A DNA stretch of 64,000 nt from a phage. How positions within the stretch are numbered: the first letter of the stretch is position 1; each line of letters starts with the position of its first letter. Position numbers and translations under genes: made by a program. The DNA lies in the sequence record MZ956763.1; one strand, written 5' to 3'. This document shows positions 11,227 through 31,662 of the stretch, piece by piece. The notes beneath the pieces are model-generated. The model ran no database searches. It was not told the DNA's origin and saw only the letters and a list, made by a program, of their open reading frames with translations.

Positions 11227-11389
11227 GAGTGATAAGTACACTCAAGAAGAGACAAGATTCATTGTCAAAGGTAATACTGGCAGTGATGTGGCAGCAGCCC
11301 TTGAGTTTTATCGTGATGGTTTTTACCAGTGCACAATAAAAGCTAATAACCTTATTGATATGATTTTATTAGGAAACAAACAGCAATGA
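11120..11389 (+). CDS. lipoprotein, possible o-spanin (Rz1-like) or surface-exclusion lipoprotein
   Basis: lipobox LITMSGC after signal peptide; overlaps 3' end of 10879..11226 in another frame. Confidence 0.35.
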   Translation: MKKLSQSFIMFVLLITMSGCSTNKVNSTFKNSQVSESDKYTQEETRFIVKGNTGSDVAAALEFYRDGFYQCTIKANNLIDMILLGNKQQ

Positions 11390-11655
11390 CAGATAATGAA
11401 GACACTTTCTATGTAGAAGGGTACTTACTGCTACCACGACCAAAAGAAACTTATATGCGGTTTGATTTCTCACCAACCATTATGGATAATGTGATGTGTC
11501 ATATCTTTATGCAAGGTGTCACAGCACAGCTTAAGCATGTTGGTAAAGAGTGCAAAATAAAGGTTGACACTCATCCAGAAATCAAAGAGAATCACTACAC
11601 GTGGTTCTTACCAGACTCTAAAGAAATCTTAGCAGTTCTTAAAACGAGGAAGTAA
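11386..11655 (+). CDS. hypothetical protein
   Basis: ORF 89 aa. Confidence 0.45.
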   Translation: MTDNEDTFYVEGYLLLPRPKETYMRFDFSPTIMDNVMCHIFMQGVTAQLKHVGKECKIKVDTHPEIKENHYTWFLPDSKEILAVLKTRK

Positions 11656-11657
11656 CT

Positions 11658-11984
11658 ATGCAGATTAATGGAAGAGACTTTGTAGCCGTTTACTACGAGA
11701 AAGATAAAGAAGTTGGCGTAGCACAAGTATCTTATGGCAATGGTAAGTGGCTATATGGAACAATTGCAGTAGTCGGAACAAGGAGCGATACAAAAACTTT
11801 CAAAGATTGTGTTGACCTTCTTGAAGAATCCATACAGAATCATTGGTGTCTGATATGGATGACTGATAACGAAGTGATGGAGCGTTTCAAAAAGATTGAT
11901 ATCAACATTGACAGTATTGAGCATGTTGATTTATATGAGCTAACTGAGAAGGTAAACTATGAAAGTAATACTAGCCAGAGATAA
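11658..11984 (+). CDS. hypothetical protein
   Basis: ORF 108 aa. Confidence 0.45.
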   Translation: MQINGRDFVAVYYEKDKEVGVAQVSYGNGKWLYGTIAVVGTRSDTKTFKDCVDLLEESIQNHWCLIWMTDNEVMERFKKIDINIDSIEHVDLYELTEKVNYESNTSQR

Positions 11985-12186
11985 AAAGACACGAAAGCTT
12001 ATCAGGTCAGCAGTGTTCATTGGACGAAACGAGGTCATCCCATTTACAGCAAATGATGTGATAGCTTACAGGGAGAACTTAGTATTCACTGACTGCTTAC
12101 GTGGCTTCATCTCTGAACCATTGGAAGATTTTAAAAGTCGTTGTGGTAAAGGTATCATCATTCAAGAGGCAATTATTCATGGCTGA
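11959..12186 (+). CDS. hypothetical protein
   Basis: ORF 75 aa. Confidence 0.35.
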   Translation: MKVILARDKKTRKLIRSAVFIGRNEVIPFTANDVIAYRENLVFTDCLRGFISEPLEDFKSRCGKGIIIQEAIIHG

Positions 12187-12379
12187 TTTCTGCAAGAAGT
12201 GTGCAATAGAACATTTTGGTGTTGATACAGGGGACTTGAAAGGTCTCTTCACCAAAGAAGAGTTTGAATCTGGTTCAGCTATGCCAGTTATCTGTGAAGG
12301 TTGTGGTGCAGGTTATGTAGACCATGAGGGTAACCGTGTAAAACCATCCGAAGACATGCAACGTTGGGAGTATTATTAG
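12179..12379 (+). CDS. small Cys-rich (zinc-ribbon-like) protein
   Basis: start at internal ATG (MADFCKKCAIEHFG...CEGCGAGY); CxxC...CxxC. Confidence 0.4.
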   Translation: MADFCKKCAIEHFGVDTGDLKGLFTKEEFESGSAMPVICEGCGAGYVDHEGNRVKPSEDMQRWEYY

Positions 12380-12380
12380 T

Positions 12381-13166
12381 ATGGGTATTGTAAAAATTAT
12401 TAACGGTGATATCTTTTCAGCATTTGATAAAGGTAAGTTTGACATCATCGGTCAGGGTTGCAACTGTATGAATTTAATGGGTGCAGGTATCGCTGACAAG
12501 ATTTCTAAACTTTACCCAAAAGCATATGAGACCGATACAGAAGTTTATCTATATGCAGGTGGCATTCGTCACAAACCCTGTGAAAATTTACTGGGTAATT
12601 TCTCTGTAGCACGTTTAAAACAAGGTCGTATAGCTAACCTTTACACCCAACTTCATACTGGTAAAGATGCCCGATACAGTGCTTTAGAGTCATCTTTGAA
12701 GCAACTTAACAGATACTGTGAAGTCAATCAGTTGAAGAAAGTTGGTCTGCCTATGATTGGTGCAGGTATCGGTGGACTTGACCCTCAAGCTGTCACAGTT
12801 ATCATTAATCAGGTGATGAAGGGTGTAGATGTATATCTGTATGTCTACGAGACAGAGATGTACAACGAGTTACACTCAGGTTGGAAGAACTACTGTGAAC
12901 CAGAATACTTTGCAGGTGTAGCAGTGTTCACAGATAACGCAGTTACCCTCTTCAGACGAAGAAAAGGTAAGATACATCAAAGTAACCCTCCGGTTGAAAA
13001 GATGTCTCTAAGTAACGCTCTAGTTACCCACCTGTCGAAGAGCAATCACAGGATTGCAGTAACATTTGGCAGTGATGCAGATGCTTACATCTATGCAAGA
13101 ACTGATGAGGATATCGAGACGATTTTCTCTTCACCAGAAGTTACCTTCTTAGACGCAAAGAACTAA
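12381..13166 (+). CDS. Macro-domain (ADP-ribose binding/processing) protein
   Basis: N-terminus IINGDIFSAFDKGKFDIIGQGCNCMNLMGAGIADKI matches macrodomain GDIT...DAIVNAAN..GGG pattern; second Gly-rich loop GLPMIGAGIGGLDP. Confidence 0.65.
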   Translation: MGIVKIINGDIFSAFDKGKFDIIGQGCNCMNLMGAGIADKISKLYPKAYETDTEVYLYAGGIRHKPCENLLGNFSVARLKQGRIANLYTQLHTGKDARYSALESSLKQLNRYCEVNQLKKVGLPMIGAGIGGLDPQAVTVIINQVMKGVDVYLYVYETEMYNELHSGWKNYCEPEYFAGVAVFTDNAVTLFRRRKGKIHQSNPPVEKMSLSNALVTHLSKSNHRIAVTFGSDADAYIYARTDEDIETIFSSPEVTFLDAKN

Positions 13167-13240
13167 GAAACTCTGTAAAATATTCACAATAGACTAAGCC
13201 TTTCTTATCTGGTAAATTTTTCAGGTAAGGAGGGCTTTTT

Positions 13241-13419
13241 TATTTCAGAATTGTGCAGGTAGAGTTCTGTAGAGAAATCTGTAGAGAAAATTTTGAACTC
13301 CAAAGGGAAAATTCATTTTCAAGTTGTGCAGGTAATCTCCAAAGAGCTTTTTCATTTTCAAAACGTGCAGAGAAAAATCAGGTCGGGCAAGAAAAATCAT
13401 TTTAGAATTGTGCAGGTAG
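13241..13419. repeat. four direct repeats of ~22 nt (cATTTTCArNTTGTGCAGGTA) in non-coding region
   Basis: copies at ~13241, 13311, 13351, 13393; plus tandem 12-mer TCTGTAGAGAAA x2 at 13266-13290. Confidence 0.7.
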
Positions 13420-13594
13420 GTGGGTGTAGGTGGGGATGTCGCCATTTCTCACAAGGCTACCACATCCGAAAAGAAAAGTCAACAGAAAAATTTGTAGCGG
13501 ATTGAAAAATAATTCTTGATTTGTGTTCTGTTTTGTGGTATTCGCGCGCACCCGTTTCATTACATTTTTGCCAAAAATATTTTTAAAATTTTTC

Positions 13595-13623
13595 TTGACT
13601 ATTCGAACGGGGTTATCTAGTAT
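13595..13623 (+). promoter_or_regulatory. sigma70-like promoter TTGACT-17-TAGTAT with downstream leader hairpin
   Basis: consensus-like hexamers; followed by CAACGGGGCGACAAGCCC hairpin and TAGGAG RBS. Confidence 0.5.
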
Positions 13624-13675
13624 TTGCATCAACGGGGCGACAAGCCCGATAGCCTTAAACTAGGAGAATCTAAAA

Positions 13676-13882
13676 ATGCTATACGGTCGTGAATTGATGG
13701 TTACAACTAACGTTAACACAAATGTAAAACGTTTTTACATGCAAATTTGTGGCGTATGGTCTAGAATATCAGAGGCTGACTATTGCAACTATGTAGAAAC
13801 GGCAATCAACTCTGATTGCTACCTTACAAGGAATACAAGAAAGCACATAAGACAGACAGCAGTTTACTACTACGATATCTAA
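13676..13882 (+). CDS. hypothetical protein (early)
   Basis: ORF 68 aa behind conserved RBS cassette. Confidence 0.4.
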   Translation: MLYGRELMVTTNVNTNVKRFYMQICGVWSRISEADYCNYVETAINSDCYLTRNTRKHIRQTAVYYYDI

Positions 13883-13884
13883 TA

Positions 13885-13970
13885 AAGTACTTTACAAGGG
13901 GCTTAAAAGTTGATATCTTAAGCCCCAGATAAAGAGCTTTATCAACAACCTTAAACTAGGAGATTCAAAA
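13885..13970 (+). repeat. reiterated intergenic module (hairpin GGGGCTTA..TAAGCCCC + CCTTAAACTAGGAGATTCAAAAATG)
   Basis: near-identical copies at 14352, 14700, 15767, 16562. Confidence 0.8.
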
Positions 13971-14351
13971 ATGGCATATCGTGCACCTAAATTCATCAAT
14001 AAAGACAATTTCCGCAATGCACTGGAAAAATCACTTGATGAGAATTTTACAGGTCGGGTTATTGTTGTACACGCATTCAATTTTAAGTATGATATTAACG
14101 GGAATAAAATCAACCATTACACGGCAACCATGTTAGATGGTGCGCTTTCAAGTGAAAAAGCCGTACTGAATGCACTTGCTGGACGTGGTAAAAACCTGAT
14201 AAAATGCAATAAGAGACGTTATCAGGGCGGCGCATATGGTTACGATGATGCTGTTTATCATCTTGAGAATATGGGCTATTCAGTGGAAAAAGCTGGAGCG
14301 CCGCAAATCATTGGTAGCGATGGTTATGTAACAATTTTCAAAATTAAATAA
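13971..14351 (+). CDS. hypothetical protein (early)
   Basis: ORF 126 aa. Confidence 0.5.
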   Translation: MAYRAPKFINKDNFRNALEKSLDENFTGRVIVVHAFNFKYDINGNKINHYTATMLDGALSSEKAVLNALAGRGKNLIKCNKRRYQGGAYGYDDAVYHLENMGYSVEKAGAPQIIGSDGYVTIFKIK

Positions 14352-14441
14352 TAAAGTACTTTACAGGGGGCTTATAGTTCGATAAAGTAAGCCCCAGATA
14401 AAGAGCTTTACCACTAAATCCTAAATTGGAGAATCTGAAAA
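14352..14441 (+). repeat. reiterated intergenic module (hairpin + RBS)
   Basis: GGGGGCTTATAGTTCGATAAAGTAAGCCCC hairpin, then conserved AGATAAAGAGCTTTACCACTAAATCCTAAA..GGAG. Confidence 0.8.
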
Positions 14442-14699
14442 ATGGCTATTATCAAAAACGTTGTAGTTCCTGCAAAAACTCGTGATGACGCTCGCGTTAT
14501 GGCTAAAAAGTTATGTGGGAGAGTGGTTGACAACGGGAAACAATCTGCTGTAAGATGGGGTGTAAAGGTTGATAAACATTTAACCTTAAAACGTAGTTCA
14601 AACAACCTTTTTAAAGGTGTAAAATCACTCGGTAAAGTGAACGTTTTTACCAAAAAAGGTTATAAAATGCACTTATCATTAACTGGCAATTTAATCTGA
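14442..14699 (+). CDS. hypothetical protein (early)
   Basis: ORF 85 aa. Confidence 0.45.
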   Translation: MAIIKNVVVPAKTRDDARVMAKKLCGRVVDNGKQSAVRWGVKVDKHLTLKRSSNNLFKGVKSLGKVNVFTKKGYKMHLSLTGNLI

Positions 14700-14787
14700 T
14701 AAAGTACTTTACAAGGGGCTTAAAAGTTGATATCTTAAGCCCCAGATAAAGAGCTTTACCACTAAATCCTAAACTGGAGATTCAAAA
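14700..14787 (+). repeat. reiterated intergenic module (hairpin + RBS)
   Basis: same module as 13885. Confidence 0.8.
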
Positions 14788-15084
14788 ATGAAATTATCAA
14801 ATAAAGTTAGGGAAAACCTTAGCAAATTACTCAATAAAATTGATTTTATCGAGACATCAAGAAATAGTCATGATGTTATGGAATGGTTACACGGCAAAAT
14901 AAAAGGCCGTCGTGTGGTGATTTGCTTATGGAATAGTTGCAGGGAGTATAAAAAACCTGTATTACAAGTTAATATATACGATAATACTTTTAAAAGCCCT
15001 GTAAAGTCTAAAAGCGATTTATTAGAATCTTATGAGATATCTGTAAATGGTAAAGTATCACGTAAAGAGGTAACACCATGCTAA
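14788..15084 (+). CDS. hypothetical protein (early)
   Basis: ORF 98 aa. Confidence 0.45.
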   Translation: MKLSNKVRENLSKLLNKIDFIETSRNSHDVMEWLHGKIKGRRVVICLWNSCREYKKPVLQVNIYDNTFKSPVKSKSDLLESYEISVNGKVSRKEVTPC

Positions 15085-15410
15085 TGACTGGCATCACCGC
15101 AATCATAGCCATTATAGCACTTTATAAGGCATATAAAGCCTATAATCTGGCAAGTAAGGCAATCACGCAGCAGGTTAGCAATAGCCTTGTAGAGAGCTTT
15201 CTAGGGCGCCTCAGTGATGAGCAAATAAAGCGGCTAGAGATGAGCTTCAGATATAAAGCGAAAACCTATCAGATAAGTGACATCTTCAAAGATGATTTTC
15301 AGCTTGTCGATGATTATAATGCTCTGATAAATGCTTTAAATATCAGTGACTTAAAAGACTACTACGCTGTAATTGTTCAAGAACTGAGCAAACGAAAACA
15401 AAATGCTTGA
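15078..15410 (+). CDS. hypothetical membrane protein (early)
   Basis: ORF 110 aa, N-terminal hydrophobic helix. Confidence 0.45.
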   Translation: MLMTGITAIIAIIALYKAYKAYNLASKAITQQVSNSLVESFLGRLSDEQIKRLEMSFRYKAKTYQISDIFKDDFQLVDDYNALINALNISDLKDYYAVIVQELSKRKQNA

Positions 15411-15434
15411 CACTGGTTTTTAGATAGATTAAAT
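15406..15434 (+). promoter_or_regulatory. sigma70-like promoter TTGACA-17-TAAATT
   Basis: followed by conserved leader CATCAACGGGGGGCGATAACCCC hairpin and RBS. Confidence 0.55.
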
Positions 15435-15494
15435 TACACATCAACGGGGGGCGATAACCCCACTACATAAAGCCCTTAAACTAGGAGATTCAAA

Positions 15495-15767
15495 ATGTAT
15501 ACTACTAACAACGGTCGCACCTTAAACGTAACCCTACGCCACTATGTAAACGGGGTGATGCACTTCGAGGATTTACGGGCTGAACAGCATATTTTGGATT
15601 GGCAACTTGCAGGACTCCAAAAAACTGCTACAGGATACGGGAAAAAGATTTCAACTAGTTGGAAAGTATACTACGAGGGACGTTTGCGCAGAATTTATCA
15701 AGATGTGTACAGTAATAGCGCATCAAGTTACATCATGGTAAAAGGTAAAAAACTGCATTTAGTATAA
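15495..15767 (+). CDS. hypothetical protein (early)
   Basis: ORF 90 aa. Confidence 0.45.
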   Translation: MYTTNNGRTLNVTLRHYVNGVMHFEDLRAEQHILDWQLAGLQKTATGYGKKISTSWKVYYEGRLRRIYQDVYSNSASSYIMVKGKKLHLV

Positions 15768-15852
15768 AGTACTTTACAAGGGGCTTATAGTTCGATAAAG
15801 TAAACCCCAGATAAAGAGCTTTACCACTAAATCCTAAATTGGAGATTCAAAA
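15767..15852 (+). repeat. reiterated intergenic module (hairpin + RBS)
   Basis: same module as 14352. Confidence 0.8.
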
Positions 15853-16257
15853 ATGGCTATTAATAACCGTGAATTATCAATCTTAAAAGCACGTTTGACC
15901 GTCAACCGGATTAATGTTATTACATCATCAGCCCCAGACGAAACACTGCAAAACATTATTGGGAAGATTCAAAGTGTTATCTTAGACGTTGAAAGCGTAA
16001 AAAACTCACTGGCTGACGTTGCAGCAGGTATCACGCTAGACGGTGCACAATATGAAATGACCGACATGTTAGGCAAATCTAAGGTAATTAATAGGGAGTT
16101 AGATTTGAAAATGTTTCGTTTTGCTGTTAAAGTGTGGCTATCTGTCGAGTATGACGCAAATTTTGCAATCGCTGACTTTTTTGCAACATGGTTGCAACGT
16201 AATTTAACAAATCACGATTTTCGTGATATCTGCGATGTAATTTACGCAGAACTATAA
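15853..16257 (+). CDS. hypothetical protein (early)
   Basis: ORF 134 aa. Confidence 0.5.
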   Translation: MAINNRELSILKARLTVNRINVITSSAPDETLQNIIGKIQSVILDVESVKNSLADVAAGITLDGAQYEMTDMLGKSKVINRELDLKMFRFAVKVWLSVEYDANFAIADFFATWLQRNLTNHDFRDICDVIYAEL

Positions 16258-16265
16258 AATTTCTC

Positions 16266-16294
16266 TTGATTTTGTTTTTTAAAGCAAGTAAATT
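16266..16294 (+). promoter_or_regulatory. sigma70-like promoter TTGATT-17-TAAATT
   Basis: followed by conserved leader ACTAATCAACGGGAGG... hairpin. Confidence 0.55.
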
Positions 16295-16357
16295 ACTAAT
16301 CAACGGGAGGTCATCACCTACCCACTACATAAAACCCTTAAACTAGGAGATTCTAAA

Positions 16358-16561
16358 ATGGCTATTATTAACGGTTTAAACATTGAGACTACTCACATCA
16401 AAGATATCAAAGTCGGTGATATAGTCCTTTTTCACGGCGTAGAAAAAACCGTCACGGCGAAAGATATCAAGGAGGATTCATTCATGGGCCGAACCCTCTT
16501 CGGTGATTCCTATTGCTTAGGTTACCTTGCAGTTTTAAAAGTTGTCAAAAATAATCGTTAA
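16358..16561 (+). CDS. hypothetical protein (early)
   Basis: ORF 67 aa. Confidence 0.4.
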   Translation: MAIINGLNIETTHIKDIKVGDIVLFHGVEKTVTAKDIKEDSFMGRTLFGDSYCLGYLAVLKVVKNNR

Positions 16562-16648
16562 AGTACTTTACAAGGGGCTTATAGTTCGATAAAGTAAGCC
16601 CCAGATAAAGAGCTTTACCACTCAATCCTTAAACTAGGAGATTCAAAA
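16562..16648 (+). repeat. reiterated intergenic module (hairpin + RBS)
   Basis: same module as 14352. Confidence 0.8.
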
Positions 16649-17191
16649 ATGAAATGCTTTCACGGTACTACTCAAGAAAACTTCATCAACCTGATTAATA
16701 ACGGTGATAAGCCATCAGGTGCATGGAATTGTTCGGATATGGACGGCAATTTTTACGTGTATCCAGAGAATAAAATCTATGGCGACGATGAGGAAGAGAT
16801 AACATCTGAAGGCATCCAGCAAGCGTTAGGCAATGCCACTATCACGGCAGCTTTCCAGATGAAAACCCAAAATATTGTTATCTTAGAACTTGATATCCCA
16901 GAGGATGACCTGAATGATGATTATTCTTGCGATAATATGTCTGGCGTAGCAAGTTTTACAGAATACTTCGATTTGAATTGGATTAAAAAGGTTTACGTAA
17001 CTGAGTTTAATGCGATGTTTTCGCCTTTTTGTCTTCCTTCATTGGATAACCCAAATTTAAACTATCTTGACGAGTCTCTGGAACTTCTTGCTAAAAGTGT
17101 TCAACAGTCGGACAGTATTCAGGTTTTTTGTGACATCATGGATACACTAACGGGAAACATCGCAGAAGAGGATTTAAAGAGCTTTTTTTAA
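16649..17191 (+). CDS. hypothetical protein with PARP/ART-like HG[ST]..N..I..G N-terminal motif
   Basis: MKCFHGTTQENFINLINNG resembles H-Y-E class ADP-ribosyltransferase motif (cf. PARP LLWHGSRTTNFAGILSQG); tentative. Confidence 0.4.
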   Translation: MKCFHGTTQENFINLINNGDKPSGAWNCSDMDGNFYVYPENKIYGDDEEEITSEGIQQALGNATITAAFQMKTQNIVILELDIPEDDLNDDYSCDNMSGVASFTEYFDLNWIKKVYVTEFNAMFSPFCLPSLDNPNLNYLDESLELLAKSVQQSDSIQVFCDIMDTLTGNIAEEDLKSFF

Positions 17192-17232
17192 AAACCTATG
17201 CAATCACCTTATAAACACTAATCAGCCCCTTA

Positions 17233-17253
17233 CAGGGGCTTTTAAGGGGCTTA
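17233..17253 (+). terminator. intrinsic terminator
   Basis: AGCCCCT-TAC-AGGGGCT + TTTT. Confidence 0.6.
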
Positions 17254-17257
17254 AATC

Positions 17258-17491
17258 ATGCTTATAACCGTTTATCTTATCCTTTCTATTTGTAATGGCC
17301 ATTCATGTGATTTTAAAGGGCTTGAGGAGTTCACAGGAAGTAAAGAAAATGCTGTTCAGGTCTGTCAGATAGCAAGGCAAGACTACCCCGCCAGTGATGA
17401 CATACAATGTTATTTTAAGACAGAAGATGAAGATGGTATCTATTTCGATAGTGTAGACGGTCAATATGAAATAATTATAGAAAAAGACTAG
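17258..17491 (+). CDS. hypothetical small protein with N-terminal hydrophobic segment
   Basis: ORF 77 aa. Confidence 0.4.
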   Translation: MLITVYLILSICNGHSCDFKGLEEFTGSKENAVQVCQIARQDYPASDDIQCYFKTEDEDGIYFDSVDGQYEIIIEKD

Positions 17492-17517
17492 ACAAGCCTG
17501 ATAAAAATCTGTAAATT
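17489..17517 (+). promoter_or_regulatory. promoter TAGACA-17-TAAATT with conserved leader hairpin GGGAGGGATGACCTCCC
   Basis: same cassette as 18050, 18646, 18975. Confidence 0.5.
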
Positions 17518-17579
17518 GTCAATCAACGGGAGGGATGACCTCCCAACTAAACAAAGTCCTTAAACTAGGAGATTCAAAA

Positions 17580-17921
17580 ATGGCTTATGTAACCGTAATT
17601 ACCAATAAAGAAGATTCATCTTGGTCAACTCAAGTAAGTGACAAGATGTCACCTATGCAGTGCCTAAAATACTTTGAGCAATGGAACAAAGGTGAGGAAA
17701 CAAGCCCCTTTCAAGTAATGCAGATTATTCATACAGACAACGAAGGGAATAAAACTGTTTTGAATAGTGAGTACTATGCAACCAGATTAGAAACGAGAAG
17801 TAAAGCAATGAAGCTCTTACGTGAATCCGGTTATTCTCATATTGCCGCGCTAATCTGGGATGACCTCCTAAAAAGTCAGCGTATCAGCTATGTAAAACCT
17901 GAAAAAATATTCATCAGTTAA
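17580..17921 (+). CDS. hypothetical protein (early)
   Basis: start placed at ATG after conserved RBS (MAYVTVITNK...); ORF-track N-terminal extension is translated leader. Confidence 0.45.
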   Translation: MAYVTVITNKEDSSWSTQVSDKMSPMQCLKYFEQWNKGEETSPFQVMQIIHTDNEGNKTVLNSEYYATRLETRSKAMKLLRESGYSHIAALIWDDLLKSQRISYVKPEKIFIS

Positions 17922-18049
17922 TCAATAACTTACAAAAAACTTTTAAAAAAATGTTGACAATCCCTCTTGACATTGGTAACTTTGTTCGAGGGGGCTTATC
18001 TAAAAGGGATTCACTTAAAAGATTCTTTATAGATAAGCTCAAAAATTGC

Positions 18050-18078
18050 TTGCAATCAGCTATCAAAACAAGTAAATT
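18050..18078 (+). promoter_or_regulatory. promoter TTGCAA-17-TAAATT with conserved leader hairpin
   Basis: leader CAACGGGAGGGATAACCTCCCC, then TAAACTAGGAGATTCAAAAATG. Confidence 0.55.
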
Positions 18079-18140
18079 ACTAATCAACGGGAGGGATAAC
18101 CTCCCCACTAAGTAAAGTCCTTAAACTAGGAGATTCAAAA

Positions 18141-18671
18141 ATGAACAAGTTCAAAGCTATCAACTTCATTCGTTCAAATAGTGTTATGTCTAAGCCTGTT
18201 AAAGACACCTATGAATTTCGTTGTAATGGTGTACACTTTGCAACCATCACTAAATCAGAAAACGGGGCTTATTACATTCATCGTCGTAATGTTGCAACCG
18301 TTGTAGTCTCTCACTTTATGCAAGCCGTTGCGGAACTCCTCCCGATGTTTTTAGGGCTTTACTTAGATGAGTGTAAAAACGTTCACAATCACGTTAAAAA
18401 CCTTTTAAACAGTTATAAAATGGCTTATGAACGTTCTATCAAGTCCTTAAACAAGTTCTATAAAGCCCCTGTAAATACTGTTTCAATGGCCTACGCTGCA
18501 AATGGTGAAAGAGTAAGCCTATCCGATGTGGAAGATATCGAGCTTTACGACCATCGTCCTAACGGTTACTCTCAGACCCTCGGTGAAGGTTTATCATTCA
18601 ATATCAAGAACTTAGAAAAAACTTTAAAAGATATTGAAAAAGATATTGACGAGACAATCAAAAATCTGTAA
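18141..18671 (+). CDS. hypothetical protein (early)
   Basis: ORF 176 aa. Confidence 0.5.
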   Translation: MNKFKAINFIRSNSVMSKPVKDTYEFRCNGVHFATITKSENGAYYIHRRNVATVVVSHFMQAVAELLPMFLGLYLDECKNVHNHVKNLLNSYKMAYERSIKSLNKFYKAPVNTVSMAYAANGERVSLSDVEDIELYDHRPNGYSQTLGEGLSFNIKNLEKTLKDIEKDIDETIKNL

Positions 18672-18674
18672 ATT
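18646..18674 (+). promoter_or_regulatory. promoter TTGACG-17-TAAATT with conserved leader hairpin
   Basis: overlaps 3' end of previous gene; leader GGGAGGGATGACCTCCC. Confidence 0.55.
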
Positions 18675-18736
18675 ACTAATCAACGGGAGGGATGACCTCC
18701 CTACTAAATAAAGTCCTTAAACTAGGAGTTATCAAG

Positions 18737-19000
18737 ATGGAAAACGTAGAATTAACCACACTTTTACAAATTGCAACCGACAAAGAAAACGTAGCATTAA
18801 TTCACCGCATCGAAAGTGATTTGTTCAATGGTGAAATCATCAAAGAGTCTTACGAAGTTGTCGGATTCAAAGATGGTAAAACGTTTGGATTCTTTGACCT
18901 CGAAAAAGGCAACGCTATTACAAAATATGATGTTNTATCTTGTGAGATTCTTACAAAATACAACGAAAAAAGGCTTGCAACATACGCNAACATGCAGTAA
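18737..19000 (+). CDS. hypothetical protein (early; contains ambiguous bases)
   Basis: start at ATG after GGAG (MENVELTT..); two N in sequence. Confidence 0.4.
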   Translation: MENVELTTLLQIATDKENVALIHRIESDLFNGEIIKESYEVVGFKDGKTFGFFDLEKGNAITKYDVXSCEILTKYNEKRLATYXNMQ

Positions 19001-19003
19001 ATT
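18975..19003 (+). promoter_or_regulatory. promoter TTGCAA-17-TAAATT with conserved leader hairpin
   Basis: -10 overlaps stop codon of previous gene. Confidence 0.5.
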
Positions 19004-19065
19004 ACTAATCAACGGGAGGGATGACCTCCNTACTAAATAAAACCNTTAAACTAGGAGATTCAAAA

Positions 19066-19314
19066 ATGGCAACTATCCGCGCAACCGTTAACNAATTNNG
19101 CTTCTACTCTCTGGATGTTAAATTTGACCTTGTGGGCACTGATAACGCCTTTGAAATGGTGAAAGGTCTTATCAGTCAGACCATCAAAGACTATAATCCT
19201 TCTGATGAGTTCTGGAAAGAAACAAAACAGGAAGTTCTTAAAGATGGTTATTCTTTTCACTATTGGGGTGAAAAAATTGTCTCTCTGTACTACGATAAAG
19301 AAGGCACTAACTAA
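19066..19314 (+). CDS. hypothetical protein (early; contains ambiguous bases)
   Basis: start at ATG after conserved RBS (MATIRATV..). Confidence 0.4.
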   Translation: MATIRATVNXXXFYSLDVKFDLVGTDNAFEMVKGLISQTIKDYNPSDEFWKETKQEVLKDGYSFHYWGEKIVSLYYDKEGTN

Positions 19315-19352
19315 ACGCCGCAGCGGGGCTAAATAGCCCCAGATACCTTTAC

Positions 19353-19377
19353 AGCCCCTCTGAATAGGGGCTTTTTT
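19353..19377 (+). terminator. intrinsic terminator (second of two tandem hairpins)
   Basis: GGGGCTAAATAGCCCC then AGCCCCTCTGAATAGGGGCT + TTTTTT. Confidence 0.7.
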
Positions 19378-19379
19378 AC

Positions 19380-21010
19380 GTCTTATACAATCCTTATACA
19401 AACCCTTTCCCTTTCCTTCCTAGAATCTTACTAGACCTTAAAAGCAATAACTCTATAGTCTACTCTATAGCCTTTTATCAAATCAACTTAAATATAAGCC
19501 CATAACCCGAAAGGGAAGGGCAACCATTTAAACGCTCTATAAAGCCCTATAACAACCTTATTAACCCAACTTAAGGGATTGCATTATCTCACCCTTAAAA
19601 GCCCTTTATAAAGCTTCCTAGAGCCTTAAAAGAATCTTATAAGGGTGTAAGCTTTATTATCTCGTTAGCTATCTTGTGAATAACTAAAAAGGGCTATGAG
19701 ATAGATTCTATCGAATCCTATTGTTAGTGTCTTAAAAGTATGTTATAGGGGCTATGAAGTAGCTTAAAAGTTGCTTAAAAGTTACGTAAAAGAGGTTATA
19801 AAGTTACGTAAATGCTAGCCCCCTTAACATTTTCTTAACAATTTCTTAACAATCCCTACATAGTTATGCTTTTAAGGCACTTGTTAGCAACTTGTTAGCC
19901 CCTTGTTAAATCTCTGTTAAGACCACGTAAAAGCCTTGTAAGAGTCTTTGACATAGCCTTAAAAGCTCCTGTAAAGCCCTATAAAGAGCTATCCATACAG
20001 TTGAGGGGTAGATACTAGGAAGAGACTTAAAAGGGCTTATAAGGGGCTATAGAGAGCTTTTAAGAGATATGTTTAGAGATTCACTAAGAGGAAAGGGAAT
20101 GATAAGAAAAGAGATAGTGACCATGTTAATAGCTTGTTAAAAAGATTAAACACTTGTTAGGAACTTGTTAATTATCTTTACAAAATAACCCTTAAAAATT
20201 AACTTGTTAGCTCTTGTTAGTCATCTGTTAAGATTCTGTAAAGCCTATTCAGTACTTGTTAGAAAACTGTTACAACCTTGTTAGTTCTGTTAAGAATATG
20301 TTAAGACCTCTGAAGAGATGTTAAAGAGATGTAGCAACTGTTAAGAGATTGTTAATGATATTTTAAAATTTTGCAAAGGGGGTGTTAAGGGGCTGTTAAG
20401 GGCTACCAAGCAGATATACATCCTAATCAGATATTTTTGAGTTCCTTCAAAGACCCTAAAAAATGACTTGATAGTCCTATTTTATAAAAATTTTAAAATT
20501 CTGAATAATTACCTATACAGTCTTCTAAAAATACAGGCATAAACAGGCTTATAAGATACCTTGTTAGTACCGTGTTAGACCTTGTGAGATAAGGTCTGTA
20601 AAGATATTCCTGTTAAGTTTGCTAAAACAGTCTATATAGAGGCTTAGTAATACCTAGTGAACATCTATAGAGGGTATCATAGGTAACCTAGAGATTAAGA
20701 GGTGTATAGGAGCTTCTAAGAGGGTATAGAGAGGTGGTTAAGGTGATTGTATAGGTTGTTAAGAAGGCTTGTTAGGAGAGTGTTTAGAAGGCTTGTTAGA
20801 GGGCTAGTTAGAAGGGTTATACAGAGGGGCTATTAAGACCACTAGATAGTTACTAAGATACTATATAGTACTATATAACTATATAGAGAGTAAGATTAAG
20901 AAGGTTGTTAAGAAGGATAGATATTTTATTCACATATGATGGTGACCCAGAGGTTGGGACAACCGATAAAATTTTATAAAAATTAAAAAGCCCCCAATTA
21001 AGGAGGCTCT
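19380..21010. repeat. 1.6 kb ORF-free region densely packed with short reiterated motifs (YTGTTAR, CTTAAAAG, CTTATAAG, TATAG)
   Basis: no ORF >60 aa; about 30 copies of CTTGTTAG/CTGTTAAG-like words, many CTTAAAAG/TATAAAG words; lies between convergent gene blocks. Confidence 0.8.
20985..21009 (-). terminator. probable intrinsic terminator for leftward block
   Basis: minus-strand hairpin (AGCCTCC/GGGGGCT) followed by T-run. Confidence 0.45.
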
Positions 21011-25715: not shown

Positions 25716-27100
25716 TATGCCTCCCCTGCTGGGTTAACTGTAACTGTTGCCGCATTAGATGTTACAGAGCCACCTGCACCAGTCACTACACAAGTGTAGC
25801 TTCCTGAATCAGCAGTGGTTGCACCTTCTTTGGTGTAAGTTGCAGCAGTTGCATCGAGGATGTCTTCCTCACCTTTCTTCCACTGGTAACCTGTCGCACC
25901 TGTTGCCGCAACATTCAGCGTTAAGGTCTCACCTTCAGTGATTTCTTGATTGGTTGGCTGTTGAGTGATTACTGGAAGTGCATTCACAGTAACCGTTGCT
26001 GCGTTAGATGTGACTGTTGTACCACCAGCACCAGTAACTACACAGGTGTAGGAACCAGCATCGGCAGGAACTGCGTTAGCTTTCGTGTAAGTCGCACCAG
26101 TTGCGCTAGGGATGTTCACATTGTCCTTTTTCCACTGGAAACCTTCCGCACCTGTCGCCTCAACACTCAGTGTCAAAGAGTTGCCCTCATTAACTACCTG
26201 ATTGGTTGGCTGCTTGGTAATAACTGGCAAAGCATTTACCGTGACAGTTGCAGGGCTAGAAGTAACAGAACCACCTGCACCTGTTACAACGCAAGTATAT
26301 GAACCTGCATCTGCTGGAAGCGCACCAGACTTGCTATAGGTAGCGTTTGTAGCTGAAGGAATGTCAGAGCCATCTTTCTTCCATTGGTAACCTGTTGCAC
26401 CTGTTGCAGTCACTTCCAAGTTGATGTTCCCACCCTCATTAACGGTCTGACCAGAAGGCTGCTGTGTAATCACAGGCAGTGCGTTGACAGTAACTGTTGC
26501 CGCATCTGAGGTAACACTTGTTCCAGCCTCTCCAGATACAACACAAGTGTATGAACCTGCATCAGAAGGTAATACAGACTGTTTTGTGTAGGTTGCAGAG
26601 GTGGCACTAGTGATATCCTCACCACCCTTTTTCCATTGATATCCAGTGGCATTCGTTGCAACAACACTTAGGGTAAGCGTACCACCTTCATTTACTGTTT
26701 GATTGGTTGGCTGCTGAGTGATTGCTGGTGGCTTGATAGCATCCTTCAACTTAGCATTCAACATTGAGAATGGTTTAACTCTTGCCAGCCATTCACAATA
26801 AACTGTATCAACATCTTTACCATTGATAATTGCATATTGTAAGTCCATGAAGAAGTCAGAAGTTCTCATTTGAGCACCAATGCTGTAAAGCAACTCATCA
26901 CTAAATGGAACTTTGTAGTCTGGTTTGTAGTCAAACTCCTCAACTTCTGCAATATCAGCTTCAGGCCAATACGAACTATAGGTAAGCGGTAAAATAGCCT
27001 CTTGATATGTTCTAAAATCATATCTCTTACCAGCTTTTACGTTTGCAATGAAGCCCTTCACAAACTCTTTGAAGTCTGGGTAAGTCTTTGCTTTAATCAT
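25715..27100 (-). CDS. protein with N-terminal domain plus tandem Ig-like (I-set-like) repeats
   Basis: repeated ~95-aa units NALPVITQQPTNQ..GATGYQWKK..ATYTK..ADAGSYTCVVTGAGG..TS.AATVTV; N-terminal ~120 aa paralogous to 27097..27468. Confidence 0.7.
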   Translation of the reverse strand: MIKAKTYPDFKEFVKGFIANVKAGKRYDFRTYQEAILPLTYSSYWPEADIAEVEEFDYKPDYKVPFSDELLYSIGAQMRTSDFFMDLQYAIINGKDVDTVYCEWLARVKPFSMLNAKLKDAIKPPAITQQPTNQTVNEGGTLTLSVVATNATGYQWKKGGEDITSATSATYTKQSVLPSDAGSYTCVVSGEAGTSVTSDAATVTVNALPVITQQPSGQTVNEGGNINLEVTATGATGYQWKKDGSDIPSATNATYSKSGALPADAGSYTCVVTGAGGSVTSSPATVTVNALPVITKQPTNQVVNEGNSLTLSVEATGAEGFQWKKDNVNIPSATGATYTKANAVPADAGSYTCVVTGAGGTTVTSNAATVTVNALPVITQQPTNQEITEGETLTLNVAATGATGYQWKKGEEDILDATAATYTKEGATTADSGSYTCVVTGAGGSVTSNAATVTVNPAGEA

Positions 27101-30843: not shown

Positions 30844-30921
30844 GTTCCAGTAGACAAAATGGTAAAGTCACCACTCTTTCAAAGTGGATATCTGAGGGTT
30901 CAAATCCCTTCTGGAACGCCA
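30844..30921 (+). tRNA. tRNA-Glu (anticodon TTC)
   Basis: acceptor GTTCCAG/CTGGAAC, anticodon arm CCACT-CTTTCAA-AGTGG, T-loop TTCAAAT. Confidence 0.8.
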
Positions 30922-30926
30922 GTTTT

Positions 30927-31003
30927 GACAGAAGACCAATTACAGCAAACTTAATCTTATTCATCTGAAGGTAAATCGGACAAAGAAGAGATTTGGTCTG
31001 GTC
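30927..31003 (+). ncRNA. structured element A (conserved ACAGAAGACC...GGTCTGG terminal stem)
   Basis: 5' GACAGAAGACCAATTACAGCAA, 3' ATTTGGTCTGGTC; family members at 31095, 31576, 31663. Confidence 0.45.
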
Positions 31004-31013
31004 ATTAAGAATT

Positions 31014-31089
31014 GCGGGTATAGAGAAAGGGCGTCTCACATGTCTCATTAGCATGGTATCGGCAGGTTCGACTCCTGCACCCGCCTCCA
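31014..31089 (+). tRNA. tRNA-Met (anticodon CAT)
   Basis: D-stem GAGA/TCTC, anticodon arm CATGT-CTCATTA-GCATG, T-arm GCAGG-TTCGACT-CCTGC; acceptor pairing imperfect by eye. Confidence 0.65.
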
Positions 31090-31094
31090 AATTT

Positions 31095-31651: not shown

Positions 31652-31662
31652 TCAACAAATTT

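What the first reader, a model, noticed from the sequence alone, without database searches (positions are those of the whole stretch)
13595..19065. Reiterated early-gene cassette: promoter with TAAATT -10, conserved 5' leader hairpin showing compensatory changes, and identical RBS
At least seven small ORFs are each preceded by the same unit: a -35-like hexamer, 17-nt spacer, -10 (G)TAAATT, then ACTAATCAACGG followed by a short hairpin whose stem differs between copies while staying paired (GGGAGG/CCTCCC, GGGGGG/CCCC, GGGGC/GCCC, GGGAGGT/ACCT), then ACTAAATAAAGTCCTTAAACTAGGAGATTCAAAAATG. Compensatory changes imply the hairpin is functional, for example mRNA stabilisation, RNase processing or a regulator binding site. 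The conserved leader also explains spurious N-terminal extensions (MTSQLNKVLKLG...) in the ORF track.
Basis: seen in the sequence. Interest (0 to 1): 0.6.

Follow-up and report, generated by a model that had tools for sequence, protein, structure and literature searches.

The report
Repeated promoter-hairpin-RBS cassettes, Felix-O1-like phage
A Felix O1-type phage expresses about a dozen small genes of unknown function from two families of repeated promoter + stem-loop + ribosome-site cassettes, the same kind of shuffling-prone regulatory module known as PeSLs in T4-like phages, so the finding is real but is a new example of a known kind.

Summary
The window is a Felix O1-like phage (Felixounavirus, 90% identical to phage HK3). 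Seven genes between 13.6 and 19.1 kb are preceded by a -35 hexamer, a 17-nt spacer, a TAnnnT -10 (TAAATT), the block CAACGG, a G/C hairpin, an A-rich leader and a GGAG ribosome site. Both types recur in >200 Felix O1-like genomes and in the genera Mooglevirus and (class B only) Kolesnikvirus. Promoter hexamers keep the sigma-70 signature while surrounding bases vary. Stems keep pairing through changed pair types, more than shuffles allow. Whole gene+cassette modules are gained, lost or reordered between relatives, and hairpin variants are swapped between copies. All products are ORFans. This matches the anatomy and behaviour of T4-type PeSLs. The 2010 Felix O1 paper listed the repeats without interpreting them. 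What the hairpin does is not shown: 5' protection of its own mRNA (class A), or punctuation of read-through RNA. It is not a canonical terminator, because no U-tract follows it. No transcription-start data exist.

The parts
13196..13237 (+). Intrinsic terminator closing the upstream operon (after the phosphatase gene)
   Evidence: 17-bp stem followed by TTTTATTT. Equals terminator t13 of Felix O1.
13595..13678 (+). Class A cassette 1 (divergent): -35 TTGACT 13595-13600, -10 TAGTAT 13618-13623, CAAC 13630, hairpin GGGC-GACAA-GCCC 13635-13647, RBS, ATG 13676
   Evidence: The orthologous promoter carries GGGA/TCCC in KPS64 and GGGGAGG/CTTCCCC in Mushroom.
13676..13882 (+). ORF, 68 aa, unknown function (phrog_5293)
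   Evidence: Absent from wV8, Mushroom and others.
13880..13973 (+). Class B cassette 1: stop TAA, long hairpin 13884-13940, -35 TTTACA 13891-13896, -10 TATCTT 13914-13919, RBS, ATG 13971
   Evidence: (-20.4 kcal/mol, z -3.2).
13971..14351 (+). ORF, 126 aa, unknown function (phrog_4495)
14349..14444 (+). Class B cassette 2: long hairpin 14353-14409, -35 14360-14365, -10 TAAAGT 14383-14388, ATG 14442
   Evidence: -22.8 kcal/mol, z -3.1.
14442..14699 (+). ORF, 85 aa, unknown function (phrog_5089)
   Evidence: Absent from Felix O1, L018 and L026.
14697..14790 (+). Class B cassette 3: long hairpin 14701-14757, -35 14708-14713, -10 TATCTT 14731-14736, ATG 14788
   Evidence: In relatives an extra gene (f20, Felix O1 ORF16) with its own class B cassette is inserted here.
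14788..15084 (+). ORF, 98 aa, unknown function (phrog_4401)
15078..15410 (+). ORF, 110 aa, overlaps the previous gene (translationally coupled) and has no cassette. Its TGA stop lies inside the next -35.
15407..15497 (+). Class A cassette 2: -35 TTGACA 15407-15412, -10 TAAATT 15430-15435, hairpin GGGG/CCCC 15446-15461, ATG 15495
15495..15767 (+). ORF, 90 aa, unknown function (phrog_3436)
15765..15855 (+). Class B cassette 4: long hairpin 15766-15822 (inner stem weakened by G->A, TAAACCCC), -35 15773-15778, -10 TAAAGT 15796-15801, ATG 15853
   Evidence: -7.7 kcal/mol inner stem.
15853..16257 (+). ORF, 134 aa, unknown function (phrog_4327)
16266..16360 (+). Class A cassette 3: -35 TTGATT 16266-16271, -10 TAAATT 16289-16294, bulged hairpin GGGAGGT-CATC-ACCT(A)CCC 16305-16323, ATG 16358
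16358..16561 (+). ORF, 67 aa, unknown function (phrog_3623)
   Evidence: Its position is swapped with f29 in some relatives.
16559..16651 (+). Class B cassette 5: long hairpin 16560-16616, -35 16567-16572, -10 TAAAGT 16590-16595, ATG 16649
   Evidence: -22.5 kcal/mol, z -3.3.
16649..17191 (+). ORF, 180 aa, unknown function (phrog_3303)
17224..17240 (.). Plain hairpin AGCCCC-TTACA-GGGGCT between ORFs, not part of a cassette. Annotated as a terminator in wV8.
17258..17491 (+). ORF, 77 aa (phrog_4640), no cassette. Its TAG stop is part of the next -35 (TAGACA).
17489..17582 (+). Class A cassette 4: -35 TAGACA 17489-17494, -10 TAAATT 17512-17517, hairpin GGGAGG-GATGA-CCTCCC 17528-17544, ATG 17580
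   Evidence: (z -2.85).
17580..17921 (+). ORF, 113 aa. The true start is 17580; the ORF-list start 17535 is the in-frame ATG in the hairpin loop.
18050..18143 (+). Class A cassette 5: -35 TTGCAA 18050-18055, -10 TAAATT 18073-18078, hairpin GGGAGG-GATAA-CCTCCC 18089-18105, ATG 18141
18141..18671 (+). ORF, 176 aa (Felix O1 ORF22 homologue). -35 TTGACG and the spacer of the next promoter are inside its coding end, and its TAA stop is inside the next -10.
18646..18739 (+). Class A cassette 6: -35 TTGACG 18646-18651, -10 TAAATT 18669-18674, hairpin 18685-18701, variant RBS AGGAGTTATCAAG, ATG 18737
18737..19000 (+). ORF, 87 aa (true start 18737, not 18692). Absent from Felix O1 and several relatives.
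18975..19068 (+). Class A cassette 7: -35 TTGCAA 18975-18980, -10 TAAATT 18998-19003, hairpin 19014-19030 (one N), ATG 19066
19066..19314 (+). ORF, 82 aa (true start 19066, not 19021). Last gene of the cluster.
19353..19372 (+). Intrinsic terminator closing the cluster
   Evidence: 7-bp GC stem followed by TTTTTACG. Equals t23 of Felix O1.

Best explanation
The 13.6-19.3 kb stretch is the variable ORFan region of a Felix O1-like phage. It is built from self-contained expression cassettes that are the Ounavirinae counterpart of the PeSLs (promoter-early stem-loops) of T4-type phages. Each cassette holds a host sigma-70 promoter, a G-run/C-run stem-loop kept by selection for pairing, an A-rich leader and a strong GGAG ribosome site. 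Two architectures coexist. In class A (7 copies) the promoter often overlaps the end of the upstream gene, with the stop codon inside the -10 or -35. Transcription is predicted to start at the conserved CA of CAACGG, so the stem-loop sits about 3-4 nt from the 5' end of the mRNA. In class B (5 copies) the promoter TTTACA-17-TAnnnT is nested inside a ~57-nt imperfect hairpin. The -10 lies in the loop and the 3' arm lies between the -10 and +1, so that structure can only form in RNA read through from upstream. Most likely mechanism (inferred, not shown): the stem-loops punctuate the RNA between cassettes. They would give the upstream message a structured 3' end or attenuate read-through. In class A they would additionally cap the cassette's own message with a 5'-terminal stem-loop that slows 5'-end-dependent decay. 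The 70-90 nt of near-identity in every intergenic gap serves as substrate for homologous recombination. That recombination adds, deletes and reorders ORFans and homogenises the cassettes.
For: Promoters (shown at sequence level). Class A -35 hexamers lie in gene-specific, often coding, sequence yet match TTGACA >=4/6 at exactly 17 nt in 7/7 copies, against a background of 5.3%. Across 39 distinct class A variants only positions 1, 2 and 6 of the -10 are invariant (T, A, T). In class B the -10 lies in a variable loop, takes 12 different sequences, and keeps TAnnnT at 17 nt from TTTACA; T34, A35 and T39 are invariant in 33/33. A-tracts precede the -35 in 7/7. Hairpins (shown). There are 136 class A copies in 25 sources with 39 distinct hairpins, and 38/39 start at the first nt after CAAC. 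Stem positions 4-7 carry GC, AU, GU, CG and UA pairs. 85.0% of cells pair against 77.2+/-1.1% after shuffling the 3' letters (0/2000). For positions 4-8 the figures are 75.6% against 62.6% (0/2000). Native arms beat chimeric arms, -11.8 against -10.5 kcal/mol, 0/10000. The orthologous first promoter carries GGGC/GCCC, GGGA/TCCC or GGGGAGG/CTTCCCC in different phages. For class B, 92.2% of cells pair against 88.5% (0/500), slid controls give 33-57%, and compensatory pairs are GC->UA at 7-57 and 20-44. Fold z-scores are about -3.2. U.G wobbles favour the + strand (-13.75 against -11.91 kcal/mol). Conservation: class A and B occur in Mooglevirus KPS64, and class B in Kolesnikvirus phiEa21-4 and SeKF_13. 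210 phage records carry the class A unit. Shuffling (shown). Gene-order maps of 27 genomes show whole gene+cassette modules present, absent or reordered. One insertion is bounded by a duplicated RBS block. KPS64 has a 127-bp tandem duplication of a cassette. Hairpin variants are not tied to the downstream gene. ORFans: PHROGs of unknown function and no Pfam hit. PeSL anatomy as published matches point by point (PMC2839356).
Against: No transcription start, half-life or termination data exist for any Felix O1-like phage, so every functional step is inferred. Strand asymmetry of the class A stem is weak (-11.79 against -11.24 kcal/mol; + strand better in 21/39), so an RNA-level role for class A is not proven. 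Some copies have partly broken stems, for example wV8 GGGGAGGCAATAAACACCCC at -7.5 kcal/mol and window 15773. G-run/C-run arms pair promiscuously, so the covariation signal is modest in size. Much of it travels as whole modules, so independent events are few. The predicted 3-4 unpaired 5' nucleotides are at the upper limit for 5'-end protection (from my own knowledge of the ompA-type 5' stem-loop work). No U-tract follows any cassette hairpin (1-3 T in 8 nt, against 5-7 at the real terminators), so classical termination is unlikely. Felix O1 RT-PCR timing of homologues is mixed, 5 and 25 min.
Confidence: 0.7

Rival explanations
1. The stem-loops are primarily transcription terminators or attenuators that insulate each cassette from upstream transcription. 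This is the reading given for T4-type PeSLs. The 5' leader position in class A would be incidental.
For: They sit 10-60 nt after the upstream stop codon. In class B and in all Kolesnikvirus cassettes the structure cannot be in the cassette's own transcript. A T4-type PeSL stem-loop reduced downstream lacZ as much as rrnB T1.
Against: No U-tract follows them: 1-3 T in the 8 nt after the stem in all 39 class A and 92 class B variants. The two terminators that bound the cluster have 5-7. The consensus scan flags none of the cassette hairpins. The phage uses canonical terminators where it needs them.
Confidence: 0.3
2. The structures are RNA processing sites. The ~57-nt class B hairpin (9 bp + 3x3 internal loop + 9 bp) would be cut by RNase III like the intercistronic sites of T7 early RNA. 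Alternatively, RNase E would cut the A/U-rich stretch just 3' of the stems. Either cut would convert read-through RNA into monocistronic messages with protective hairpin ends.
For: Class B folds at -20 to -23 kcal/mol with z about -3.2. Covariation occurs in both helices, and the Felix-type variant loses the palindromy of the flanks yet keeps inter-flank pairing through G.U and U.G. A conserved A/U-rich single strand follows both stem types.
Against: Class A stems (4-8 bp) are far too short for RNase III. Outer-helix covariation in class B rests on essentially one lineage, and recombinants break it (4 unpaired cells at pair 7-57). There are no cleavage data.
Confidence: 0.2
3. The conserved block (CAACGG + hairpin with loop RAURA; in class B the TAAAGnnCTTTA near-palindromes flanking the promoter) is the binding site of a phage or host protein. 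That protein would co-regulate the whole ORFan set, for example by shutting off early expression.
For: CAACGG is invariant in 39/39 variants across two genera. The loop is mostly GATGA, AATGA or GATAA. TAAAGTACTTTA is a perfect 12-bp palindrome that overlaps the class B -35, and a near-copy lies at about +2 to +13.
Against: Hairpin loop and stem sequences differ widely in Mooglevirus (GGGGC-AAGTTAGAA-GCCCC, GAGA loop). The Felix-type class B variant is not palindromic. Invariance of CAACGG is also what a start-site context plus gene conversion would give. No candidate regulator was identified.
Confidence: 0.12
4. The repeats have no function beyond the promoter and RBS. The hairpin would be a passenger inherited by duplication and spread by gene conversion.
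For: Copies are homogenised within genomes, and the dominant hairpin GGGGAGGGAATGACCTTCCCC occurs upstream of almost every gene family somewhere. Some copies are partly broken.
Against: Pairing is kept above shuffle expectation with several pair types per position. A stem-loop at or around the promoter is kept in three genera although its sequence and exact position changed.
Confidence: 0.07
5. The ~23-nt conserved block TAAATTACTAATCAACGGGAGGG is a promoter for a phage-encoded RNA polymerase (T7-like), or a hairpin promoter of the N4 virion-polymerase type.
For: It superficially resembles TAATACGACTCACTATAGGGAGA. A hairpin lies next to the start site.
Against: Felix O1 encodes no RNA polymerase (PMC3185647). 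-35 hexamers are kept at 17 nt in non-repeated sequence. Only the TAnnnT positions of the block are invariant upstream of CAAC.
Confidence: 0.02

Closest known systems
PeSLs (promoter-early stem-loops) of T4-type phages RB49/phi1, T4/PST and KVP40/nt-1 (Arbiol et al. 2010, PMC2839356; Comeau et al. 2014, PMC4122927)
   Same: The layout matches: upstream stop codon and A/T-rich stretch, sigma-70-like -35/-10, a stem-loop with G-run and C-run arms and G.T pairs placed between, over or just after the promoter boxes, then SD and ATG. The elements are about 90 nt long, clustered in a hyperplastic region of ORFans, and gene gain, loss and replacement between relatives occurs at the elements.
   Different: The phage lineage differs (Ounavirinae, ~87 kb, not T4-type). 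No sequence similarity was detected: all sampled blastn hits of the unit are 81-90 kb Felix-like genomes. There are only two sharply defined architectures. Class B is a two-helix ~57-nt hairpin enclosing the whole core promoter. Class A places the stem after the predicted start. Promoter and terminator activity and mini-circles are untested here.
Direct repeats listed in the Felix O1 genome paper (57-bp and 39-bp repeats between genes 15/16, 19/20, 18/19, 20/21; PMC3185647) and repeat_region DR_1-DR_9 in the wV8 GenBank record
   Same: These are the same sequences: the 57-bp repeat is the class B core and the 39-bp repeat is the class A promoter.
   Different: They were reported only as repeats. 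The promoters of this region were not recognised (the paper lists five other promoters), and no hairpin, covariation or shuffling was described. The wV8 paper does not discuss them.
5'-terminal stem-loop mRNA stabilisers of E. coli (ompA 5' UTR type; from my own knowledge, not checked in the library)
   Same: A stable hairpin lies within a few nucleotides of the predicted 5' end, followed by an unstructured A/U-rich leader and a strong SD.
   Different: The 5' end is not mapped, 3-4 unpaired nucleotides are predicted, and no half-life data exist. The class B and Kolesnikvirus cassettes cannot work this way.
Intercistronic RNase III sites of T7 early mRNA (from my own knowledge)
   Same: Class B is an intercistronic imperfect hairpin of two ~9-bp helices separated by an internal loop.
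   Different: It is shorter than typical substrates, encloses an active-looking promoter, and cleavage is not shown. Class A is much too short.

Membership tests
PeSL (promoter-early stem-loop cassette) | Sigma-70-like -35 and -10 boxes in every element | tested here: met
   Sequence level only. Class A has 7/7 -35 hexamers at 17 nt from TAnnnT. Class B has TTTACA-17-TAnnnT with 12 different -10 hexamers.
PeSL (promoter-early stem-loop cassette) | Stem-loop with polyG/polyC arms (G.T pairs allowed) next to or overlapping the promoter boxes | tested here: met
   Class A has 4-8 bp G-run/C-run stems with 16 G.U pairs in 253. The class B inner stem GGGGCTTA/TAAGCCCC spans the spacer to the discriminator.
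PeSL (promoter-early stem-loop cassette) | Upstream gene's stop codon and an A/T-rich stretch at the 5' edge; SD and start codon at the 3' edge | tested here: met
   Stop codons lie inside or just before the -35 or -10. A-tracts precede the -35 in 7/7. GGAG lies 7-9 nt before the ATG.
PeSL (promoter-early stem-loop cassette) | Concentrated in a hyperplastic region rich in ORFans | tested here: met
   All 12 copies lie in 13.6-19.1 kb and none elsewhere in 64 kb. Products are PHROGs of unknown function with no Pfam hit. Gene content is variable.
PeSL (promoter-early stem-loop cassette) | Insertions, deletions and replacements between related phages are bounded by the elements | tested here: met
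   Module-wise presence, absence and reordering is seen in 27 genomes. Junction sequences include a duplicated RBS block. Hairpin modules are exchanged between copies.
PeSL (promoter-early stem-loop cassette) | Promoter and terminator/attenuator activity in reporter assays; formation of PeSL mini-circles | not testable with these tools
   Needs lacZ fusions and inverse PCR as in PMC2839356.
5'-terminal stem-loop mRNA stabiliser | Stem-loop begins within about 0-4 nt of the transcript's 5' end | tested here: inconclusive
   The stem starts 10-11 nt after the -10 in 38/39 variants, so about +4 if initiation is at the usual distance. No TSS data exist.
5'-terminal stem-loop mRNA stabiliser | Removing the stem shortens mRNA half-life | not testable with these tools
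   Experiment required.
Intrinsic (Rho-independent) terminator | G+C-rich stem-loop | tested here: met
Intrinsic (Rho-independent) terminator | U-tract immediately 3' of the stem | tested here: not met
   There are 1-3 T in the 8 nt after the stem in all variants, against 5-7 at the terminators 13196-13237 and 19353-19372.
RNase III processing site (T7 early type) | About two helical turns of (interrupted) duplex RNA | tested here: inconclusive
   Class B has 9-11 bp + internal loop + 9 bp, with 92% of cells paired. Class A has 4-8 bp and fails.
Single-subunit phage RNA polymerase promoter (T7-like) | Phage encodes its own RNA polymerase | not tested
   Not searched here. The Felix O1 genome paper states that no RNA polymerase is encoded.
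Single-subunit phage RNA polymerase promoter (T7-like) | Contiguous conserved ~20-bp block with no -35 requirement | tested here: not met
   Between the -10 and CAAC only the TAnnnT positions are invariant, and -35 hexamers are maintained in non-repeated sequence.

The most novel reading that the evidence does not exclude
The stem-loops may not be passive punctuation. They may be the handle of a dedicated post-transcriptional regulon. A phage (or host) factor would recognise the invariant CAACGG-hairpin of class A RNAs and the promoter-in-hairpin of class B read-through RNAs. It would then process, stabilise or silence the whole ORFan set together. The class B element would serve as a dual-use sequence, in which the same 57 nt is a promoter as DNA and a processing or silencing signal as RNA. 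The small SD-covering stem (UCCU/AGGA, with a linked T+A insertion in 117 against 143 against 0 copies) would be part of that control.
Probability: 0.12. Interest if true: 0.65.

Novelty: new member of a known kind. Interest (0 to 1): 0.4.

Why it matters
It extends the PeSL concept from T4-type phages to an unrelated myovirus subfamily, Ounavirinae (Felixounavirus, Mooglevirus, Kolesnikvirus). In that concept, portable promoter/stem-loop/RBS cassettes both express ORFans and shuffle them. This suggests a general solution for maintaining a fast-evolving accessory gene pool in virulent phages. It also assigns a function to repeats listed without comment in the Felix O1 reference genome. It supplies about a dozen missing promoters for a region where the genome paper found none. 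It corrects start codons (17580, 18737, 19066) that ORF callers extend through the hairpin loop. Finally, it marks the set of likely host-takeover ORFans in a phage group widely used for Salmonella and E. coli biocontrol. The cassettes are also compact, apparently strong expression modules.

Tried and rejected
1. A column-wise covariation count on a MAFFT alignment of class A (A1) failed. G-run indels put the arms out of register. I replaced it with base-anchored pair counts and arm-swap energies in Python.
2. The strand test for class A (+ against - strand folding energy) was not decisive: -11.79 against -11.24 kcal/mol.
3. An Rfam scan of 13.0-21.5 kb found nothing relevant.
4. The literature gave nothing direct. 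No TSS or transcriptome study of Felix O1-like phages was found. No paper links PeSLs to them. The wV8 paper is silent on the repeats. The phiEa21-4 genome paper is not held, so I cannot exclude that it comments on the class B repeats.
5. A T7-like or N4-like phage-polymerase promoter was rejected (see rivals).
6. A T4 MotA-box reading of GGGGCTTA in class B was rejected by inspection: the box-to-(-10) distance is 7 nt, where about 12 would be needed.
7. A 5' SD-like 'STAB-SD' ribosome-binding stabiliser (GGGAGG) was rejected. The motif is sequestered in the stem and is replaced by GGGGC or GGGA in Mooglevirus.
8. Anti-SD pairing of the 3' arm CCUCCC with the downstream SD is not conserved in the GGGC, GGGG and GGGGC variants.
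9. A purely palindromic operator reading of the class B flanks is weakened. The Felix-type variant loses palindromy but keeps flank-to-flank complementarity through wobble pairs.

Full report
IDENTITY OF THE WINDOW. Megablast of 13500-19400 against the phage collection hits 257 records, all Felix O1-like myoviruses. The best is Escherichia phage HK3 at 90% identity over the full length (taxonomy Ounavirinae, Felixounavirus). The region follows a macro-domain 'phosphatase' gene and its terminator (13196-13237). It holds 14 small + strand ORFs and ends at a terminator (19353-19372). A 1.6-kb non-coding stretch and a convergent - strand cluster follow. The 24 tRNA genes lie further on.

THE OBSERVATION. 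The repeated unit is real. TAAATTACTAATCAACGG occurs 6 times at <=3 mismatches (0.10 expected). The RBS block CCTTAAACTAGGAGATTCAAAAATG occurs 7 times (0.00 expected). All copies lie between 13.6 and 19.1 kb, and these are the largest non-coding repeat families in the 64 kb. There are seven class A copies, counting the divergent first one (TTGACT-17-TAGTAT TTGCATCAACGG). The canonical copies give z-scores of -2.1 to -2.9 for the leader, and the two divergent ones give -1.1 and -1.6. The loop ATG (GGGATGACC) is in frame with the true start 45 nt downstream in three copies and yields MTSQLNKVLKLG.... In wV8-type leaders the same frame runs into TAA, so the extension is spurious.

Five other genes (ATGs 13971, 14442, 14788, 15853, 16649) use a second cassette, class B: TAA-AGTACTTTACA-AGGGGCTTA-N11-TAAGCCCC-AGATAAAGAGCTTTACC-...-RBS. 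It gives 5 matches against 0.00 expected. It shares only the RBS part with class A. The consensus scan finds TTTACA-17-TAAAGT or TATCTT in all five. RNA folding gives a long imperfect hairpin with an outer helix AAAGUACUUUA/UAAAGAGCUUU, a 3x3 internal loop and an inner helix GGGGCUUA(U)/(G)UAAGCCCC. Energies are -20 to -23 kcal/mol and z is about -3.2. The -35 sits at the internal loop and the -10 in the terminal loop. The 3' arm of the inner helix lies between the -10 and +1. RNA started at this promoter therefore cannot contain the structure. Only read-through RNA can.

ARE THEY PROMOTERS? There are three sequence-level arguments.

- In class A the repeat identity starts at the -10. The -35 and spacer lie in gene-specific sequence, often in the coding end of the upstream gene. 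The stop codon lies in the -10 at 18669-71 and 18998-19000, and in the -35 at 15408-10 and 17489-91. Even so, all seven have >=4/6 matches to TTGACA at exactly 17 nt, where 5.3% of window hexamers would. That is about 1e-9 by chance.
- Among 39 distinct class A variants from 25 genomes, only positions 1, 2 and 6 of the -10 are invariant. Mooglevirus KPS64 uses TAAAGT, TAGAGT, TAGTAT and TAATAT.
- In class B the -10 lies in an otherwise free loop. It takes 12 different sequences but keeps TAnnnT at 17 nt, with two exceptions among 42 distinct cores: one TAAAGC and one with an 18-nt spacer. Columns T34, A35 and T39 are invariant in 33/33.

A-tracts precede the -35 in 7/7 class A copies. Felix O1 encodes no RNA polymerase (PMC3185647). 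Initiation is therefore predicted, not shown, at the invariant CA of CAACGG. This puts the class A stem at about +4.

IS THE PAIRING SELECTED? I collected 136 class A copies (39 distinct hairpins without N) and 106 class B copies (42 distinct cores) from HK3, Felix O1, wV8, Mushroom, KPS64, phiEa21-4, SeKF_13 and 19 IMG/VR contigs.

For class A:
- The stem starts at the first base after CAAC in 38/39 variants and has 4-8 pairs.
- Positions 1-3 are G-C.
- Position 4 is GC 20, AU 10, GU 5, CG 1. Position 5 is AU 19, GC 9, GU 2, CG 2. Position 7 includes UA and CG.
- With ungapped, base-anchored pairing, 85.0% of cells pair against 77.2+/-1.1% after shuffling the 3' letters (0/2000). For positions 4-8 the figures are 75.6% against 62.6+/-1.9% (0/2000).
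- Swapping 3' halves between variants costs 1.3 kcal/mol on average (0/10000 permutations reach the native mean).
- The orthologous first promoter carries GGGC/GCCC (window, HK3), GGGA/TCCC (KPS64) or GGGGAGG/CTTCCCC (Mushroom).

For class B (alignment A2):
- 92.2% of cells pair against 88.5+/-0.5% (0/500).
- The covariation score is 0.138 against 0.082 (0/500).
- Slid controls give 33-57%.
- Compensatory pairs are 7-57 (GC 22, UA 6), 20-44 (GC 28, UA 4, the Kolesnikvirus GGTG/CACC) and 26-38.

Caveats:
- G-run/C-run arms pair promiscuously, so the effect sizes are modest.
- Sequences are related, and hairpins move between copies as modules (below).
- Some copies are partly broken.
- The + strand is only weakly favoured for class A (-11.79 against -11.24 kcal/mol). 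It is favoured more clearly for class B (-13.75 against -11.91; -12.6 against -7.1 in KPS64).

RECOMBINATION AND SHUFFLING. Gene-order maps built from all-against-all blastp families show that genes come and go as gene+cassette modules.
- Gene w13676 is present in 9 sources and absent in about 10. Where it is absent, the first promoter is fused to a canonical class A leader in front of the next gene.
- The Felix O1 ORF16 family (f20) is inserted between two class B cassettes in about half the genomes.
- Genes w14442, w16358, w18737, f29, f45, f53 and f79 vary likewise. f29 and w16358 occur in either order.
- Kolesnikvirus has homologues in a different order.
- In L012 an extra ORF is bounded by a duplicated 24-nt RBS block.
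- KPS64 carries a 127-bp tandem duplication of a class A cassette.
- The hairpin variant is not tied to the downstream gene. For example, the w18141 promoter carries five different hairpins in different genomes, and the dominant hairpin sits upstream of almost every gene family somewhere. HK3 has its own class B flank variant in three copies. These patterns indicate gene conversion.
- All products are PHROG families of unknown function with no Pfam hit.

WHAT THE HAIRPINS ARE NOT. They are not canonical terminators. There are 1-3 T in the 8 nt after the stems, against 5-7 at the two terminators bounding the cluster, and the scan flags none of them. They match no Rfam family. Class A is too short for RNase III.

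COMPARISON WITH WHAT IS KNOWN. The Felix O1 genome paper listed a 57-bp repeat (the class B core) and a 39-bp repeat (the class A promoter) purely as direct repeats, and found no promoters in this region. The wV8 record annotates them as DR_1-DR_9, and its paper does not discuss them. The published description of T4-type PeSLs has these features: upstream stop codon in an A/T-rich stretch, sigma-70 -35/-10, and a polyG/polyC stem-loop with G-T pairs in one of five positions, including between the boxes, over the -10 and just downstream of it. It adds SD and ATG, clustering with ORFans in hyperplastic regions, and indels bounded by the elements (PMC2839356, PMC4122927). That description fits both classes here feature by feature. 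No paper in the library connects PeSLs with Felix O1-like phages. Blastn of the unit finds only 81-90 kb Felix-like genomes among the sampled hits. This is therefore an analogue, or a very distant relative, and not a transferred copy.

MECHANISM AND CONFIDENCE.
- Shown: the repeats, the promoter signatures, maintained pairing, module-wise gene turnover, and conservation in three genera.
- Inferred: initiation sites; RNA-level action; class A as a 5'-terminal protective stem; class B and Kolesnikvirus stems as structured 3' ends, attenuators or processing sites for read-through RNA; recombination driven by the repeats.

I put 0.7 on the PeSL-like cassette model as a whole. Within it I put roughly 0.35-0.4 on 5' protection being a real function of the class A stem.

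Timing: Felix O1 RT-PCR places the homologues at 5 min (ORFs 16, 20, 21, 22) or 25 min (17, 19, 23) and none late. 'Early/middle' is fair, and 'early' alone is not established.

VERDICT. This is a new member of a known kind (PeSL-type cassettes in Ounavirinae). Interest is moderate.

Noticed in passing
window 19400-21000: A 1.6-kb non-coding stretch lies between the ORFan cluster and the convergent - strand cluster. It is packed with short motifs phased at 10-12 bp (CTTGTTAG, CTGTTAAG, CTTAAAAG, CTTATAAG, CTATAGAG; TRF arrays at 19757-19908, 20026-20064, 20376-20402, 20756-20815, 20859-20887). An equivalent gap exists in Felix O1 (ORF23-ORF24), wV8 and KPS64. It may be an origin, a packaging site or a protein-binding array.
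   Followed up: no
window 13240-13420: Three to four copies of ATTTTnRAAnTGTGCAGGTA, 40-85 nt apart, lie in the 510-nt non-coding gap between terminator 13196-13237 and the first promoter (13595).
   Followed up: no
window 13653-19068 (RBS part of all cassettes) and related loci: The RBS block exists as two alleles, CCTTAAAYTAGGAG (117 copies) and CCTAAAYTGGAG (143 copies). The extra T and extra A always occur together, with 0 one-sided forms in 27 sources. They would add a U-A pair to a small predicted stem (UCCU/AGGA) that covers the Shine-Dalgarno sequence. This could be a translational control element, or simply two alleles spread by gene conversion.
   Followed up: partly
L005 (Shigella phage KPS64) 7243-7496: A 127-bp tandem duplication contains a complete class A cassette plus the 3' end of gp112. 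This is a fresh example of cassette-associated rearrangement.
   Followed up: partly
window 17922-18140: A 219-nt intergenic piece before the class A cassette of the 176-aa gene has two TTGACA hexamers and the motif TTCGAGGGGGCTTATC. It is conserved in Mooglevirus (L005 6970-7140). The 54-aa ORF 17951-18115 there is probably not a gene.
   Followed up: no
window 15408-15410, 17489-17491, 18669-18671, 18998-19000: Stop codons of upstream genes are embedded in the next promoter: TGA in TTGACA, TAG in TAGACA, and TAA in TAAATT twice. The -35 TTGACG at 18646 is encoded by Ile-Asp codons of the 176-aa gene, and this is conserved in KPS64.
   Followed up: partly
window 30921-30954, 31088-31121, 31656-31689: Three copies of CAAATTTACAGAAGACCGTTTACAGCAA lie between tRNA genes. 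They may be tRNA-cluster promoters or processing signals.
   Followed up: no
window 25730-26767: There are four tandem ~250-nt coding repeats (63-71% identity). The homologous position in relatives is annotated as a tail protein with an Ig-like domain.
   Followed up: no
L007 (phiEa21-4) 11362-16220: Kolesnikvirus has further cassette types in which the stem arms embrace the -10: TTGCAA-AGGGGTTAT...GATTAT-AACCCC, and TTGACA...GAGGGG-TTAAAAT-CCCCTC followed by CATCAAC. It has a different RBS block (CCTTATAAAGGAATC), which also pairs CCUU with AAGG.
   Followed up: partly
window 18935-19100: Several N characters (for example in the seventh hairpin at 19031 and in the RBS block at 19045) show that the window comes from a lower-quality assembly. 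One stem position of copy 7 cannot be read.
   Followed up: no
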